Positions 31,701 through 37,700 of a stretch of 64,000 bases of DNA are shown piece after piece (the stretch's first letter is position 1; every line of letters starts with the position of its first letter). Source of the DNA: Escherichia coli (lineage in GTDB: Bacteria; Pseudomonadota; Gammaproteobacteria; Enterobacterales; Enterobacteriaceae); assembly GCF_003790525.1 (NCBI RefSeq), contig NZ_CP033635.1. One strand, written 5' to 3'. Position numbers: made by a program.

Positions 31701-34700
31701 TAAGTTGTACCACCGAAATCATCCATGATAATTACGCGTTATGCCTGCAATTCTGGCTCAATGGCGTCAATCGCCAGGAGTTACTGCGTTTAATATGCAA
31801 ACAGGCCAAAGGCGATGAGCTGACTGCTGATGAGCGCAAACAATTTAAATACATGCGAGCGCGCTACAAGCACCTGCGTTTTGCGCAACGGCTGTATTTA
31901 AAGAAGCATCAGGCCGGATTTTTATTCGGTAAAACGACCGTTTTTTTGGGGCGTTTTCAGGACGGCTTTCGTAACGGTAAGAAAAATATTGTGTCGTATT
32001 ACGGCAACCTGTTACGGGTTTATTTAAGCTCTCCGGTCTGGTCGTTGGTGAACTATTCATTACGCCATAGCCAGTTAGAAAGCGTAAGCGGTTTTATTGC
32101 CTATCGGCAAAAGCAAATGCATACCCTGAAAGAGATAATTGCCAAACCGCGACTCACCGGCAGGGAATTTCATGATGTGCGAAAAATCATCAGCCAGCAG
32201 GTTTCTTATTACGACACCTTAAGATCGCTTGATCCTGAAAATAAAGAAGCGTTACAGATTTCCCGCTTCCTCGCCGCCATTAATGGCCTGATGGGGGATA
32301 AACATGACGACATGGTGGCGGATGATATGGAAAACCGCCATTCGTATGATGCACCGATGGCGCTGGATAGCGATATTCGTCAGCGCTTAGAACTGCTGAT
32401 TTCGCGTTTTCCTCTATAACCGGAGCAATGATGTCATCTCGTTTGATTATTGCGCTGGTTATCATGCTCTTAGCCTCGGGTGTGCAGGCACACAATTTCG
32501 TCACTGGCAAAACGGTTACCCCTGTTTATATCCAGGAAGGCGGCGAGCTGCTTCTGAATAGCGAAGACGAAATTCACTACCAAAAGTGGAACAGCACCCA
32601 ATTGGCGGGAAAAGTCCGCATTATTCAGTATATCGCCGGGCGTAAGTCGGCGAAGAAAAAGAACTCACTGTTAATTAAAGCGGTTGAAGCGGCAAACTTT
32701 CCGCAGGATCGTTTTCAGCCCACCACCATTGTGAACACCGATGATGCCATCTTTGGTACTGGCTATTTTGTCGTTGGCAAAATCGAAAAAAATAAACGCC
32801 GCTATCCGTGGGCGCAATTCGTTATTGACGGCAATGGACTGGGACGCGTTGCCTGGCGGTTGCCGGAGCAGAGTTCAACCATTCTGGTGCTGAATAAAGA
32901 CGGGCAAATTCAGTGGGCAAAGGACGGCAGCCTGACGCCGGAAGAGGTAGATCATGTCATTGCGCTGGCGCAGAAACTGATCAATGAATAAAAAATTCAA
33001 AGGATTGAGGGTGTTAGTGAGATGAAGCTGGTTGAACACTACATCATGCGTGGTACGCGCCGTCTGGTGCTGATTATCGTCGGTTTTCTGATCTTTATTT
33101 TCGCCAGCTACTCCGCACAGCGTTATCTGACCGAAGCGGCAAATGGGACCTTAGCTCTTGATGTTGTGCTGGATATCGTTTTCTACAAAGTGCTGATTGC
33201 ACTGGAGATGTTGTTACCTGTTGGTCTGTATGTGTCAGTTGGCGTGACGCTAGGGCAGATGTATACCGACTCGGAAATTACCGCTATCTCTGCGGCGGGG
33301 GGCAGTCCGGGACGCTTGTACAAAGCCGTTCTTTATCTGGCGATACCGCTAAGTATTTTTGTCACCCTTCTGTCGATGTATGGTCGGCCGTGGGCTTATG
33401 CGCAGATTTATCAACTGGAGCAACAGTCACAGTCGGAGCTGGATGTTCGCCAGTTGCGGGCAAAGAAATTTAACACTAACGATAACGGACGAATGATCCT
33501 TTCGCAGACGGTTGATCAGGATAATAATCGCCTGACTGACGCGCTGATTTATACTTCTACTGCCAATCGAACCCGCATTTTCCGCGCCCGTTCGGTTGAT
33601 GTGGTTGACCCATCACCTGAGAAACCGACCGTTATGTTGCATAACGGGACCGCCTATCTTCTCGATCATCAGGGGCGTGACGACAACGAACAGATCTACC
33701 GTAATCTGCAATTACATCTGAATCCGCTGGATCAAAGCCCTAACGTCAAACGCAAAGCAAAATCGGTCACGGAGCTGGCGCGCTCCGCCTTTCCTGCCGA
33801 TCATGCCGAACTGCAATGGCGACAAAGCCGTGGCCTGACAGCATTGTTGATGGCGCTGCTGGCCATTTCATTAAGTCGGGTAAAACCGCGGCAAGGGCGA
33901 TTTTCAACGTTATTGCCACTGACGTTGCTGTTTGTTGCCATTTTTTATGGCGGCGACGTCTGCCGTACGCTGGTGGCTAACGGTGCGATTCCCCTCATTC
34001 CTGGTTTGTGGTTAGTACCCGGACTCATGCTAATGGGCCTGCTGATGCTGGTCGCACGCGACTTCTCTTTGCTGCAGAAATTTTCCCGATGAATGTTTTC
34101 AGTCGCTATTTAATCCGTCATCTCTTTCTCGGTTTTGCCGCCGCCGCAGGGCTATTGCTGCCGCTTTTTACCACCTTCAACCTGATTAACGAACTGGATG
34201 ATGTCAGCCCGGGCGGTTATCGCTGGACTCTGGCGGTGCTGGTGGTGCTGATGACCTTACCGCGTACACTGGTCGAACTTTCGCCATTTATCGCATTATT
34301 GGGAGGGATTGTTGGCCTGGGGCAGTTATCGAAAAACAGTGAGCTTACCGCCATTCGCAGCACTGGGTTTTCTATCTTCCGTATTGCACTGGTGGCGCTG
34401 GTTGCCGGGATATTGTGGACTGTTTCGTTAGGCGCGATAGATGAGTGGGTGGCGTCGCCATTGCAGCAGCAGGCGCTGCAAATCAAATCGACTGCCACCG
34501 CGTTGGGGGAGGACGATGACATTACCGGCAATATGCTTTGGGCCAGGCGCGGTAATGAATTTGTGACGGTGAAATCGCTGAACGAGCAGGGCCAGCCTGT
34601 GGGCGTGGAGATATTTCATTATCGCGACGATCTCTCGCTCGAATCCTACATTTTTGCACGCAGTGCCTCCATTGAAGACGACAAAACGTGGATCCTGCAT

Positions 34701-37700
34701 GGTGTGAATCATAAAAAATGGTTGAATGGCAAAGAAACGCTGGAAACATCAGATAATCTTGCCTGGCAATCGGCCTTCACCAGTATGGATCTTGAAGAGT
34801 TATCGATGCCGGGGAATACTTTTTCTGTCCGTCAGCTTAATCATTACATCCATTATTTGCAGGAAACCGGACAACCCAGCAGCGAATACCGCCTTGCACT
34901 GTGGGAAAAACTGGGGCAACCGATCCTGACCCTGGCGATGATTTTGCTGGCTGTGCCGTTCACCTTTAGCGCCCCGCGCTCGCCAGGGGTGGGTAGCCGT
35001 CTCGCTGTAGGCGTCATCGTTGGCTTACTCACCTGGATCAGCTATCAAATCATGGTCAATCTGGGATTGTTATTTGCGTTGAGCGCACCTGTTACCGCGC
35101 TCGGTTTACCGGTAGCGTTTGTGTTGGTGGCGTTGAGCCTGGTGTATTGGTATGACAGACAACATTAAACCCGCCGTGGCGCAACACCACAGCGGGCTCA
35201 CATTACTGCTTCAGAGTAGCAAATGCCTGAATGATGGCATCGATTTGCTCACGACTGTGGGCAGCGTTTACGCTACAGCGCAGCAGAGTGATGCCTGCAG
35301 GCGCGGCAGGTGGCAGGATAAGATTCACATAAACGCCCAGCGAAATAAGCTCGCGCCAGATGCGTAAACCTTCCTCTTTCGAACCGATTATTACTGGCAC
35401 TACCGGGCTAATATGTGAACTTAACTCATAACCCAGTTTTTGCAGACCATCATACAGATGGTTGGCGTTATCCATCAGTTTTTGCCGCAGCTCTGGTTGT
35501 GTGGCAATGGTTCTTAACGACGAGCGCACGGTCGCAATGCAGGACGGAGAAGGAGAGGCGGTAAAAATATACGGGCGGCTGCCGTAGCGCAGCACTTCCA
35601 TCGCTTCCGAACCGACAGCAAAACCGCCAATCGAGGCCAGACTTTTACTGAAGGTGCCAACGATAATATCCACATCATCTTCAACGCCAACGGCTTCAGC
35701 CAGTCCGCGCCCCGTTGCGCCTAACACGCCAAACGAATGCGCTTCATCGACAATCAAATAACCACCGAGACGACGTTTGATATCAACAATTTCCGCTAAC
35801 GGCGCAACGTCACCGAGCATGCTGTAGATACCCTCAACGATGATAATCGCCTCTTTCGCCCGTTCACCGAGGCGAACCATGCGCCGTTCCAGATCTTTAG
35901 CATCGTTATGGCGGAAACGAATAATTTCCGCGCCACCGAGAGAACAGGCGTCATAAATACTGGCGTGGCTGTCGGCATCCAGTAACACCACGGCGTTATG
36001 GTCGGCAAGTGCGCTGATGACGCCTAAATTAGCGGTATAACCGGTTGAAAAAACGATAGCGGTAGGGCGATTGAAAAACTCGGCAATCTCTTTCTCTAAC
36101 GCCAGATGCGGCGCATAACTGCCGTTTGCCATACGAGAACCGGTGGTGCCGGTGCCTTGGGCCGCTAACGCTGCCTGACCTTCGGCGATGGCATCATGAT
36201 TAAAGGTTAAACCGAGATAATTATTGGTCCCGGCCAGAATCACTTTTTTATTGCCGATCCGACCTTCGGTGGCGGAATACACTTCATCAATACAGGTGCC
36301 AAACGGTGTTAACCCGTTGTCACTAAATTGCAGTCTCTCGCCAGCAAGGCGCGCATATTTATCGTATAGCCCCATTATTTATTCTCCAGCCATGGAAGTA
36401 GAGTTTCCATTAATTGCGCAGGGGTTTTGACATCCAGCAGAATATTAATAGGAATGGAAATATCGAATCTGTCTTCCAGCATCATTAAGAGATCCATCAC
36501 TTTGATCGACTCCAGGCCAAGATCGTTGACGAGATCGCTGTCGGGCTTAATTTCCACACCGTTTTCGACCAAATCCTGTAAACAGGAAAGGATGTAATCC
36601 ATTACTATTTCACGATTTACCATAGAAACGTTAACACACCTTTAAACAAGACAATCAAAATAGCCCGTTGCGTAATGCGTGTTCCAGGCTAATCCCGGGA
36701 AACCAATTAATATCTTCAGAAATACGGTTATTACTTGCCGACCAGTCGGCATGGGTTAATTCACGGATTTTCGAACGAGTCAGCATCGGTTCTTTACCCG
36801 CCAGACGGCTCAACGCGGTACTGATATCCGCAAGGCAGGTGAGTAGCGGCAGAGGAATACCGACCATCCGCACGGAACCACAGCGGACATCGGCAACAAG
36901 CTGTTGGACACGTTGCCAGTCATAGCCTCCGGCGACGCCATCGCATAATTCATAGGTTTGCGTCTGTACAGTTTCGGCGCTTAACCACTGACCCACTGCT
37001 TGCGCAAAATCGGTGACGTGCAGGAAAGAGAGCTGTGTCTCTGGCGTGCCAAGTCGTGGCAGCAGACCGCGCAGCATCCAGTCAAACAGCGGTTTTAACT
37101 CTTTATCGCCGGGACCATACACGGCTGTCGGGCGAAAAACGCCCAACGTAATTTCGTCAGCCATTGCAGTCAGCTGTTGTTCGGCGACGTGTTTGGAATT
37201 TGCGTACCAGGAGAGTTCGGGATGGCGCGCCGCCAGCGAAGAGATAAACAGAAAACGTTGGCAAAAGCCGCTCTCTTTTGCCGCTTGCATCAGGCGCAGG
37301 CTGCCGTCAACGTTGCAGCGGGTAAAAATCTCTTCTTTGTGCCCGCGCACTTGCCCGGCGCAATGGACCACCGCGCTGGCTCCGGTAACCAGTTCGCTAA
37401 GCGAATGTGTATCTTCCAGCGAACCGCGCACCCAAGTGAGATTATCATTGACGTGAGCGCGGGCAGTACGCGTCAATGCGCGAACGTGAAAGCCGCAGGC
37501 GAGCAGGTTATCAATAATATATTTACCGATAAACCCGGTAGCGCCCGTCACCGCGACAGTTTGATTCATGCCAGAGACTCCTGCACATGAAGACTGGCAG
37601 CATAAGCCTTCTGATAACGTTTTTTCGCTTCCGCACGGGCAGGCTTGCCGGAGGATGTTCGGGGAATACTGTGGGGCGGCAACAGATCGATATCCGCGGT

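What the first reader, a model, noticed from the sequence alone, without database searches (positions are those of the whole stretch)
33022..35168. Second LptF/LptG-like permease pair without an adjacent ABC ATPase
Two overlapping genes (ATGA junction) encode proteins with the LptF/LptG architecture: RY-containing N-terminus, transmembrane helices at both ends and a central periplasmic beta-jellyroll-sized domain. The housekeeping lptF-lptG pair lies elsewhere in E. coli, so these are paralogs. There is no LptB-like ATPase in the locus, because YghR/S/T lack ABC signature motifs. A dedicated Lpt-like extractor for a non-LPS lipid would be unusual.
Basis: partly seen in the sequence, partly recalled or inferred. 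Interest (0 to 1): 0.75.

Follow-up and report, generated by a model that had tools for sequence, protein, structure and literature searches.

The report
Second LptFG pair for sphingolipid export
These two overlapping genes are a real second copy of the E. coli LPS-extractor membrane subunits LptF and LptG, they sit inside a sphingolipid (ceramide) synthesis island that K-12 has lost, and this kind of pair has already been described and tested in Caulobacter, where it exports sphingolipids using the cell's ordinary LptB ATPase.

Summary
ORFs 33022-34092 and 34089-35168 overlap by ATGA and encode full-length LptF-type and LptG-type permeases. NCBIfam scores are 320 and 302 bits, above the cut-offs. 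AF2 models match LptF and LptG chains at TM 0.77 and 0.87. They are 27-29% identical to housekeeping LptF/LptG, which lie beside pepA in 5425 of 5426 complete E. coli genomes. The second pair is in 4131 of those genomes. In K-12, an IS5 replaces window 31315-39700.

The pair lies between yghTSRQ and a convergent aasR-cerR-acpR-spt operon plus yghO (bCerS). That is the E. coli sphingolipid locus, partly characterised in BL21(DE3). Linkage to spt holds in about 42 of 50 related loci from Enterobacterales, Pseudomonas, Azotobacter, Nitrococcus and Betaproteobacteria. None of these loci encodes an LptB, LptA or LptC. Both coupling-helix motifs, with their invariant Glu and Gly, are intact. dN/dS is 0.04-0.15.

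The most likely function is an LptB2-F2G2 extractor for the island's sphingolipid. A 2024 paper proposed this and an April 2026 preprint showed it for Caulobacter LptF2/G2. That preprint also draws this same E. coli (UTI89) locus. The finding is therefore correct but already known. Still open are the E. coli lipid product, whether the locus is expressed, and the roles of YghQRST, Hyp274 and the YtfJ-like protein.

The parts
33022..34092 (+). lptF2: LptF-type permease paralog, 356 aa
   Evidence: TIGR04407 scores 319.8 bits (cut-off 230). It is 29% identical to K-12 LptF. AF2 pLDDT is 82, and the best PDB matches are LptF chains. The coupling helix at residues 78-93 is GQMYTDSEITAISAAG, with E85 and G93.
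34089..35168 (+). lptG2: LptG-type permease paralog, 359 aa, ATGA overlap with lptF2
   Evidence: TIGR04408 scores 301.6 bits (cut-off 240). It is 27% identical to K-12 LptG. AF2 pLDDT is 83, with TM 0.87 to 6mit_G. The coupling helix at residues 78-93 is GQLSKNSELTAIRSTG, with E85 and G93.
35166..35200 (.). 16-bp-stem hairpin in the 34-nt gap between the convergent stops of lptG2 and spt; likely a bidirectional terminator
   Evidence: Consensus terminator scan only.
35203..36375 (-). spt, serine palmitoyltransferase
   Evidence: NF047599 scores 597.9 bits (cut-off 500). It corresponds to ECD_02854 of BL21(DE3), which makes 3-oxo-sphinganine when overexpressed (PMC9386255).
36375..36623 (-). 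acpR, specialised acyl carrier protein
   Evidence: ACP family hits. Corresponds to ECD_02853 (PMC9386255).
36655..37569 (-). cerR/epi, NAD-dependent SDR (ketosphinganine/ceramide reductase)
   Evidence: SDR/epimerase hits. Corresponds to ECD_02852 (PMC9386255). No signal peptide.
37566..39290 (-). aasR, fatty acyl-AMP ligase / acyl-AcpR synthetase
   Evidence: NF006624 scores 872 bits. Corresponds to ECD_02851 (PMC9386255).
39661..40803 (+). yghO = aca/bCerS-type N-acyltransferase (ceramide synthase)
   Evidence: Assigned in PMC9386255. Homologs of 50-70% identity lie in nearly all related loci. No NCBIfam family.
32428..32991 (+). YtfJ-family periplasmic protein (signal peptide), function unknown
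   Evidence: TIGR01626 scores 216 bits. Translation. Found only in Enterobacterales loci.
31595..32419 (+). 274-aa hypothetical protein
   Evidence: No Pfam or NCBIfam hit. Conserved at 54-95% identity only in Enterobacterales loci.
30246..31595 (+). full-length yghQ, MOP-superfamily flippase candidate (449 aa)
   Evidence: Weak MOP flippase hits. Truncated by IS5 in K-12. Caulobacter CC_1166 is annotated with IPR002797, which that paper reads as a flippase domain; family equivalence with YghQ was not tested here.
28697..30200 (+). yghS and yghR, P-loop (dTMP-kinase-like) proteins that head the seven-gene plus-strand operon
   Evidence: Walker A only, no ABC signature. Weak TIGR00041 hits. Pfam gives only generic P-loop hits.
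27831..28523 (-). yghT, third P-loop paralog, divergent from yghS

Best explanation
lptF2 and lptG2 encode the two membrane subunits of a second Lpt-type (type VI ABC) lipid extractor dedicated to the sphingolipid made by this island.

Proposed pathway, step by step:
- AasR loads a fatty acid on AcpR, and Spt condenses it with serine. This step is shown for the BL21 proteins.
- YghO/bCerS N-acylates the product. This is inferred from Caulobacter.
- The lipid is flipped across the inner membrane, probably by the MOP-type YghQ. This is inferred.
- An LptF2-LptG2 heterodimer, docked through its conserved coupling helices on a dimer of the housekeeping ATPase LptB, extracts the lipid from the outer leaflet. 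It passes the lipid through its beta-jellyroll domains to the shared LptC/LptA/LptDE bridge. This is inferred, by analogy with Caulobacter LptF2/G2, which co-purify with each other and with LptB.

The island is accessory. It is present in about three quarters of E. coli and was deleted by IS5 in K-12.
For: - Family and fold.
- Paralogy with the universal housekeeping pair.
- Position inside the sphingolipid locus.
- Conserved linkage: Spt, AcpR, CerR, AasR and YghO homologs lie within 8 kb of the pair in about 42 of 50 loci from Enterobacterales, Pseudomonadales, Nitrococcus and Betaproteobacteria.
- No LptB, LptA or LptC in any of these loci or in the window. The only ABC proteins nearby are fused MsbA/HepA-like exporters.
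- One full-length lptB per E. coli genome.
- Coupling-helix consensus (hydrophobic, four residues, E, hydrophobic, one residue, two hydrophobic, three residues, G) from PMC5082905 is met in both proteins. The Glu and Gly are invariant in all 49 LptF2-type and 48 LptG2-type orthologs, and LptF2 is 10/16 identical to LptF in this segment against 29% overall.
- Purifying selection, dN/dS 0.04-0.15.
- Experiments in Caulobacter: lptF2/lptG2 can be deleted only in delta-spt or delta-cpgB backgrounds, F2 and G2 co-purify, and both pull down LptB.
- The BL21(DE3) AasR/AcpR/Spt proteins make 3-oxo-sphinganine.
Against: - Nothing has been tested for the E. coli pair itself.
- No sphingolipid has been reported from E. 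coli in the papers I could search. Empty-vector BL21(DE3) extracts gave no 3-oxo-sphinganine even though strain B carries the locus, so the island may be silent in the laboratory.
- The published identity between the Caulobacter LptF2/G2 and the gammaproteobacterial spt-linked pair is only 24-25%. That is no closer than the identity to housekeeping LptFG, so transferring the LptB result relies on analogy rather than close orthology.
- The Enterobacterales locus lacks all CPG head-group genes, so the substrate is chemically undefined.
- Use of LptC, LptA and LptDE downstream is unproven even in Caulobacter.
Confidence: 0.68

Rival explanations
1. The pair is a spare or condition-specific LPS extractor, for example for a modified lipid A or core. 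Its position next to spt would then be incidental.
For: Both proteins pass NCBI's LptF and LptG equivalog cut-offs, and PGAP names them lptF/lptG. They have the same fold and the same coupling helices.
Against: - The linkage to spt, acpR, cerR, aasR and bCerS is conserved across orders, which incidental placement would not explain.
- Identity to LptF/G is only 27-29%.
- E. coli LptG K34, K40 and K41, which contact the LPS phosphates (PMC9544173), are N, D and D here and acidic throughout the clade. This is a weak point, because P. aeruginosa LptG is acidic there too.
- The pair is absent from K-12 and a quarter of strains with no known LPS defect.
- The Caulobacter genetics tie the pair to sphingolipid.
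Confidence: 0.06
2. The pair exports the island's lipid but is powered by something other than LptB. Candidates are another ABC ATPase encoded elsewhere or the YghR/S/T P-loop proteins.
For: No ATPase partner has been shown in E. coli. Three P-loop genes are co-transcribed with or adjacent to the pair. A YghRST-like gene also borders some Pseudomonas sphingolipid loci.
Against: - YghR/S/T have only a Walker A motif, with no ABC signature and no PF00005 match. They resemble nucleotide kinases.
- Most related loci have no YghRST homolog at all.
- The coupling helices keep the LptB-docking consensus.
- Caulobacter F2/G2 bind LptB.
Confidence: 0.1
3. The locus is intact but cryptic in E. coli: it is effectively not expressed, so the pair does nothing under normal conditions.
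For: BL21(DE3) carrying an empty vector shows no SPT activity or 3-oxo-sphinganine, although strain B has the locus. I found no report of E. coli sphingolipids. The locus was lost from K-12 by an IS5 event without obvious cost.
Against: dN/dS of 0.04-0.15 and intact ORFs in 4105 genomes and in several genera argue for selection on function in some niche. This rival concerns regulation rather than mechanism, and it is compatible with the best explanation.
Confidence: 0.15

Closest known systems
Caulobacter crescentus LptF2/LptG2 (CCNA_01214/CCNA_01213 = CC_1156/CC_1155)
   Same: - A second LptF/LptG pair encoded inside the spt locus.
- It coexists with a housekeeping pair.
- There is no second lptB.
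- The proposed role is sphingolipid extraction from the inner membrane.
- The E. coli UTI89 locus is drawn beside it in the preprint.
   Different: - Sequence relationship is remote. Published values are 24-25% identity to the gammaproteobacterial pair. I could not test it directly because I had no Caulobacter sequence.
- E. coli has no LptC2.
- E. coli has none of the CPG/CPG2 head-group genes. In their place it has YghQ/R/S/T, a 274-aa protein and a YtfJ paralog.
- No experiments have been done on the E. coli pair.
E. coli housekeeping LptB2FGC LPS extractor
   Same: Same Pfam family (PF03739). Same arrangement of six TM helices plus a beta-jellyroll, same F-then-G overlapping gene order, and same coupling-helix motif.
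   Different: 27-29% identity. The pair is accessory rather than essential and lies in a different locus. The LPS-contacting lysines of LptG are replaced by acidic residues. The presumed substrate is a two-chain ceramide-type lipid rather than hexa-acylated lipid A-core.
spt-linked LptF/LptG pairs of Pseudomonas, Azotobacter, Nitrococcus and Betaproteobacteria (CPG-type loci, PMC11324152 Fig. 7)
   Same: These are the closest sequence relatives outside Enterobacterales (LptF2 40-62% and LptG2 43-58% identical). They have the same neighbours spt, acpR, cerR, aasR and bCerS, and the same ATGA junction.
   Different: Those loci carry DAGK_cat (CpgB-like), Tam41-like, CDP-OH_P_transf and NTP-transferase genes. 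They often have an MsbA/HepA-like exporter in place of YghQ.

Membership tests
LptF/LptG permease family (PF03739; TIGR04407/TIGR04408) | Full-length profile match above the curated cut-off, F-type and G-type respectively | tested here: met
   319.8 bits against a cut-off of 230, and 301.6 against 240. Precomputed PF03739 on orthologs.
LptF/LptG permease family (PF03739; TIGR04407/TIGR04408) | Six TM helices with a periplasmic beta-jellyroll between TM3 and TM4 | tested here: met
   AF2 secondary structure. Foldseek TM 0.77 (LptF 9dok_F) and 0.87 (LptG 6mit_G).
LptF/LptG permease family (PF03739; TIGR04407/TIGR04408) | Coupling helix between TM2 and TM3 with the published consensus and its invariant Glu and Gly (PMC5082905) | tested here: met
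   LptF2 E85/G93 and LptG2 E85/G93, invariant in 49 and 48 orthologs.
Housekeeping LPS extractor genes lptF/lptG (true orthologs) | The pepA-adjacent pair, present in every strain | tested here: not met
   The housekeeping pair lies beside pepA and is in 5425 of 5426 genomes. This pair is in 4131 of 5426 and is absent from K-12.
Housekeeping LPS extractor genes lptF/lptG (true orthologs) | LPS-phosphate-contacting LptG K34/K40/K41 (PMC9544173) | tested here: not met
   N31/D37/D38 here, and acidic in 39-42 of 42 clade members. Caveat: P. aeruginosa LptG also lacks these lysines.
Sphingolipid-locus LptF2/LptG2 (as defined for Caulobacter) | Encoded within the spt-acpR-cerR-aasR-bCerS locus | tested here: met
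   Conserved in about 42 of 50 related loci.
Sphingolipid-locus LptF2/LptG2 (as defined for Caulobacter) | Coexists with a housekeeping lptFG, and there is no dedicated lptB in the locus or genome | tested here: met
   One full-length lptB per genome at blastn sensitivity. More divergent NBD genes elsewhere in the genome were not surveyed.
Sphingolipid-locus LptF2/LptG2 (as defined for Caulobacter) | F2-G2 complex that binds LptB; deletion tolerated only when sphingolipid synthesis is off | not testable with these tools
   Shown only for Caulobacter.
Sphingolipid-locus LptF2/LptG2 (as defined for Caulobacter) | Descent from the same duplication as CCNA_01213/01214 | not tested
   No Caulobacter sequence could be fetched. 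Published BLAST gives 24-25% identity between the Caulobacter pair and the A. vinelandii / P. luteola pair, to which E. coli is 48-54% identical.
Sphingolipid-locus LptF2/LptG2 (as defined for Caulobacter) | Accompanying LptC2 | tested here: not met
   No LptC homolog in the window or in any related locus. The preprint also says lptC2 is restricted to Caulobacter.
ABC-transporter ATPase (tested for YghR/S/T) | Walker A plus the LSGGQ signature / PF00005 | tested here: not met
   Walker A only. dTMP-kinase-like and generic P-loop hits.

The most novel reading that the evidence does not exclude
The Enterobacterales version of the island carries YghQ, YghR/S/T, a 274-aa orphan and a YtfJ paralog, and has none of the Caulobacter/Pseudomonas CPG genes. 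Under this reading it makes a chemically distinct, still undescribed outer-membrane sphingolipid in most natural and pathogenic E. coli, exported by LptB2-F2G2. The lipid would have been missed because K-12 lost the island to IS5 and the operons are quiet in LB. A related open point is whether the gamma/beta-proteobacterial LptF2G2 clade arose by a duplication independent of the Caulobacter one.
Probability: 0.35. Interest if true: 0.65.

Novelty: already known. Interest (0 to 1): 0.3.

Why it matters
A second Lpt-type extractor that borrows LptB means the LPS export machine is modular, and that it is shared with another surface lipid. This matters for antibiotics that target LptB2FG, such as zosurabalpin-type macrocycles, and for understanding outer-membrane composition in clinical E. 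coli, about three quarters of which carry the island while the K-12 model strain does not. The principle is already published for Caulobacter. What remains worth doing is specific to E. coli: show that the lipid exists, identify its head group, and find out when the locus is switched on. On the practical side, RefSeq labels both pairs 'lptF/lptG', which will mislead automated analyses.

Tried and rejected
- I tried to obtain the Caulobacter LptF2/G2 sequences for a direct phylogeny. The genome-contig scan returned only gamma- and beta-proteobacterial loci, and the representative search lists only the top 150 hits, so common descent could not be tested. I relied instead on published BLAST tables.\n- I considered whether YghR/S/T-like kinases replace the CpgB ceramide kinase. 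This is rejected as a simple rule, because the Pseudomonas loci that have a YghRST-like gene also keep DAGK_cat.\n- I considered using the loss of LptG K34/K40/K41 as proof of a non-LPS substrate. I downgraded it, because P. aeruginosa housekeeping LptG is also acidic at these positions.\n- The promoter scan gave no more sites than shuffled sequence (13 against 15.1 expected), so no promoter is claimed.\n- The 274-aa protein gave no Pfam or NCBIfam hit.\n- Literature searches for yghQ/R/S/T together with sphingolipid found nothing relevant. A search for Olea-Ozuna 2021 found nothing, so the paper is not held in the library. The search for Stankeviciute 2022 failed on a term-length error and was not repeated.

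
Full report
**Observation.** The window contains two plus-strand ORFs exactly as described. One is 33022-34092 (356 aa). The other runs from the ATG at 34089 to 35168 (359 aa). The ATG of the second overlaps the TGA of the first, giving ATGA at 34089-34092. RefSeq annotates the same two genes in a genome that is 100% identical over this stretch (E. coli CREC-544). The first protein matches the NCBIfam LptF equivalog end to end (TIGR04407, 319.8 bits, cut-off 230). The second matches the LptG equivalog (TIGR04408, 301.6 bits, cut-off 240). 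Each scores far lower on the other model. Sequence searches of the PDB return only LptF chains for the first (best E 6e-32) and LptG chains for the second (best E 6e-41). AlphaFold2 models built on alignments of 36 and 43 relatives have mean pLDDT 82 and 83. They show three TM helices, a six-stranded beta domain, then three TM helices. Foldseek puts LptF chains first for one model (TM 0.77 to 9dok_F) and LptG chains first for the other (TM 0.87, rmsd 2.9 A to 6mit_G). One detail needs correcting: the 'RY' N-terminal motif is present in the G-type protein, but the F-type protein reads E-H-Y where most orthologs have R.

**Paralogs, not the housekeeping genes.** In K-12, lptF and lptG lie beside pepA. 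That DNA is found in 5425 of 5426 complete E. coli genomes. The pair studied here is found in 4131 genomes, full-length in 4105, so at least 4130 genomes carry both. The proteins are 29% (F) and 27% (G) identical to their housekeeping counterparts. True LptF and LptG score 385 and 456 bits on the NCBIfam models, against 320 and 302 for the paralogs. The paralogs still clear the cut-offs, which explains why PGAP names both pairs lptF/lptG. dN/dS against other Escherichia, Shimwellia, Pseudocitrobacter and Erwinia orthologs is 0.04-0.15. The genes are therefore under purifying selection and are not decaying.

**Context.** The pair closes a tightly spaced plus-strand array: yghS, yghR, full-length yghQ (449 aa, MOP-type flippase), a 274-aa protein with no family, a YtfJ-family periplasmic protein, lptF2 and lptG2. 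Gaps in the array range from -4 to 45 nt. Converging on it from the other strand, across a 34-nt gap that holds a 16-bp-stem hairpin, is aasR - cerR/epi - acpR - spt. Beyond that lie yghO and then the glc operon. Spt scores 598 bits on the serine palmitoyltransferase equivalog, and AasR scores 872 bits on the fatty acyl-AMP ligase model. This is the E. coli sphingolipid gene cluster described for BL21(DE3) as ECD_02850-02854. Its AasR, AcpR and Spt proteins make 3-oxo-sphinganine when overexpressed, and yghO was assigned as the N-acyltransferase (PMC9386255). In K-12 MG1655 an IS5 element (insH9) replaces window 31315-39700. That removes the 3' end of yghQ, everything through aasR, and the first 40 nt of yghO. 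The K-12 'yghQ' and 'yghO' genes are remnants of the island.

**No ATPase in the locus.** A six-frame scan of all 64 kb finds four ORFs with a Walker A motif (YghR, YghS, YghT and the type II secretion ATPase GspE). None of them has an ABC signature. YghR/S/T give only weak dTMP-kinase and generic P-loop hits and no PF00005 match. lptB is present as one full-length copy per genome. The extra blastn hits are short matches to other ABC genes.

**Relatives elsewhere.** LptG2 orthologs of 63-75% identity occur across Enterobacterales, including Hafnia, Citrobacter, Serratia, Erwinia, Pantoea, Sodalis, Shimwellia and Pseudocitrobacter. A full HMMER scan of 1.8 billion representatives shows more distant full-length relatives at 50, 45, 44 and 37% identity before a 30-35% continuum begins. 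Where a usable contig was on record for those relatives, they sit beside Aminotran_1_2 (spt), PP-binding, Epimerase and AMP-binding genes; the contigs for the 50% and 37% relatives were too short or did not reach spt. A scan of one genome per species returned 44 loci from Nitrococcus, many Pseudomonas, Stutzerimonas, Azotobacter, Azomonas, Methyloversatilis, other Betaproteobacteria and Enterobacterales. I ran tblastn with all E. coli locus proteins against the 50 loci held. Spt, AcpR, CerR, AasR and YghO homologs lie within 8 kb of the LptF2/G2 pair in about 42 of them, and the exceptions are mostly short contigs. No locus has an LptB ortholog, LptA or LptC. The only ABC hits (29-35% identity to LptB) are fused permease-ATPase exporters of the MsbA/HepA type, which lie next to spt in Pseudomonas and Azotobacter loci.

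There are two locus architectures.
- Outside Enterobacterales, the pair travels with DAGK_cat (CpgB-like ceramide kinase), Tam41-like, CDP-alcohol phosphatidyltransferase and nucleotidyltransferase genes. These match the Caulobacter CPG/CPG2 head-group pathway.
- In Enterobacterales none of these genes is present. YghQ, YghR/S/T, the 274-aa protein and the YtfJ paralog take their place.

**Mechanism.** The LptB-docking coupling helices of LptF (residues 77-92, E84) and LptG (81-96, E88) follow the published consensus: a hydrophobic residue, four residues, Glu, a hydrophobic residue, one residue, two hydrophobic residues, three residues, Gly. The Glu and Gly are strictly conserved (PMC5082905). 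LptF2 residues 78-93 (GQMYTDSEITAISAAG) and LptG2 residues 78-93 (GQLSKNSELTAIRSTG) fit this consensus. The Glu and Gly are invariant in all 49 and 48 spt-linked orthologs examined. In this segment LptF2 is 10/16 identical to LptF, against 29% overall. Together with the absence of any dedicated NBD, this points to docking on an LptB-type ATPase.

The direct evidence comes from Caulobacter. CC_1156 and CC_1155 were named LptF2 and LptG2 and proposed as sphingolipid transporters in 2024 (PMC11324152). An April 2026 preprint shows three things: the genes can be deleted only when spt or the ceramide kinase cpgB is absent, F2 and G2 co-purify, and both pull down the cell's single LptB (bioRxiv 10.64898/2026.04.12.717747). 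That preprint's Fig. 2B draws the 'sphingolipid operons' of E. coli UTI89. It states that lptF2 and lptG2 occur in many sphingolipid loci of alpha- and gammaproteobacteria, and that lptC2 is restricted to Caulobacter. I checked that UTI89 carries the same gene array as this window, UTI89_RS16545-RS16605.

My best explanation (confidence about 0.68) is therefore as follows. LptF2G2 plus housekeeping LptB2 extract the island's sphingolipid from the inner membrane, after flipping (probably by YghQ), and hand it to the shared periplasmic bridge. The steps that are shown are the fold, paralogy, linkage, motif conservation, selection, and the biochemistry of the E. coli Spt/AcpR/AasR proteins. The steps that are inferred are the substrate, the use of LptB in E. 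coli, the flippase, and the downstream route.

**Caveats.**
- The E. coli pair has not been studied experimentally.
- I found no report of an E. coli sphingolipid. Empty-vector BL21(DE3) extracts made no 3-oxo-sphinganine although strain B carries the locus, so the island may be silent in standard culture.
- Published BLAST values between the Caulobacter pair and the A. vinelandii / P. luteola pair are only 24-25% identity. E. coli is 48-54% identical to the latter. It is not established whether the gammaproteobacterial and Caulobacter pairs descend from one duplication, and I could not obtain Caulobacter sequences to test it.
- E. coli LptG K34, K40 and K41, which contact the LPS phosphates and impair transport when changed to Asp (PMC9544173), are N, D and D in LptG2 and acidic across the clade. 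P. aeruginosa housekeeping LptG is also acidic there, so this is only weak evidence for a different substrate.

**Rivals.**
- A spare LPS extractor is unlikely (about 0.06), given the cross-order linkage to spt and the accessory distribution.
- Power from another ATPase, including YghR/S/T, is possible but disfavoured (about 0.1). Those proteins are not ABC NBDs and are missing from most related loci.
- A cryptic, unexpressed locus (about 0.15) concerns regulation and is compatible with the main model.

**Verdict.** However, the phenomenon of a second LptFG pair in a sphingolipid locus with no LptB of its own is already in the literature, and this E. coli locus is depicted there. I classify it as already known and score interest at 0.3. 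The residual interest is specific to E. coli: the undefined lipid product of the Enterobacterales-type island, its accessory genes of unknown function, and the fact that K-12 lacks it.

Noticed in passing
window 31315-39700 (vs K-12 NC_000913.3 3130146-3131340): In K-12 MG1655 an IS5 (insH9) replaces this 8.4-kb stretch. The K-12 genes 'yghQ' (truncated) and 'yghO' (missing its first 40 nt) are remnants of the sphingolipid island. The K-12 record annotates YghO as a putative DNA-binding regulator, whereas the literature assigns it as a ceramide synthase.
   Followed up: yes
window 27831-30200 (yghT, yghS, yghR); L029, L033, L034, L045, L050 near 0.3-0.6 kb: These are three paralogous P-loop proteins (Walker A GxDGxGKS, weakly dTMP-kinase-like, not ABC) of unknown role. 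A single homolog of 34-39% identity also sits at the edge of several Pseudomonas sphingolipid loci, which suggests a functional tie to the pathway.
   Followed up: partly
window 31595-32419 and 32428-32991: The 274-aa protein has no Pfam or NCBIfam match. The neighbouring YtfJ-family paralog carries a signal peptide. Both are conserved only in the Enterobacterales form of the island, just upstream of lptF2.
   Followed up: partly
L029 707-2446 (-), and equivalent positions in L014-L017, L020, L023, L025, L033-L037, L045, L047, L048, L050, L051, L054; L008, L019, L038 near 15.0-16.7 kb: A fused MsbA/HepA-like ABC exporter lies next to spt in Pseudomonas and Azotobacter loci, which lack a YghQ-type MOP protein. 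Enterobacterales have YghQ and no such exporter. These look like alternative flippases for the same pathway.
   Followed up: partly
window 33022-35168; RefSeq records: PGAP labels this pair 'lptF' and 'lptG', identical to the housekeeping genes, because the paralogs pass the equivalog cut-offs (320 and 302 bits against 230 and 240). Genomes therefore carry two genes of each name.
   Followed up: yes
window 34179-34202 (LptG2 residues 31-38): The positions equivalent to the LPS-contacting LptG K34/K40/K41 are N/D/D here, and acidic in 39-42 of 42 clade members. P. aeruginosa housekeeping LptG is also acidic at these positions.
   Followed up: partly
window 36655-37569 (-): E. coli CerR begins with its Rossmann motif at residues 5-15 and has no signal peptide. 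The Caulobacter enzyme, however, is reported to be periplasmic (PMC11087976).
   Followed up: no
protein P0022: A 456-aa protein annotated in some E. coli fuses a GspC N-terminal domain (PF11356) to about 72% of LptG2 at 98% identity. It is presumably a rearrangement or deletion joining the island to the nearby gsp cluster.
   Followed up: no
window 35166-35200: A hairpin with a 16-bp stem fills the 34-nt gap between the convergent stops of lptG2 and spt. It is a likely bidirectional terminator.
   Followed up: no
window 40810-40893: About 85 bp between yghO and glcC has no counterpart in K-12 (gap in the blastn alignment). I did not examine it.
   Followed up: no
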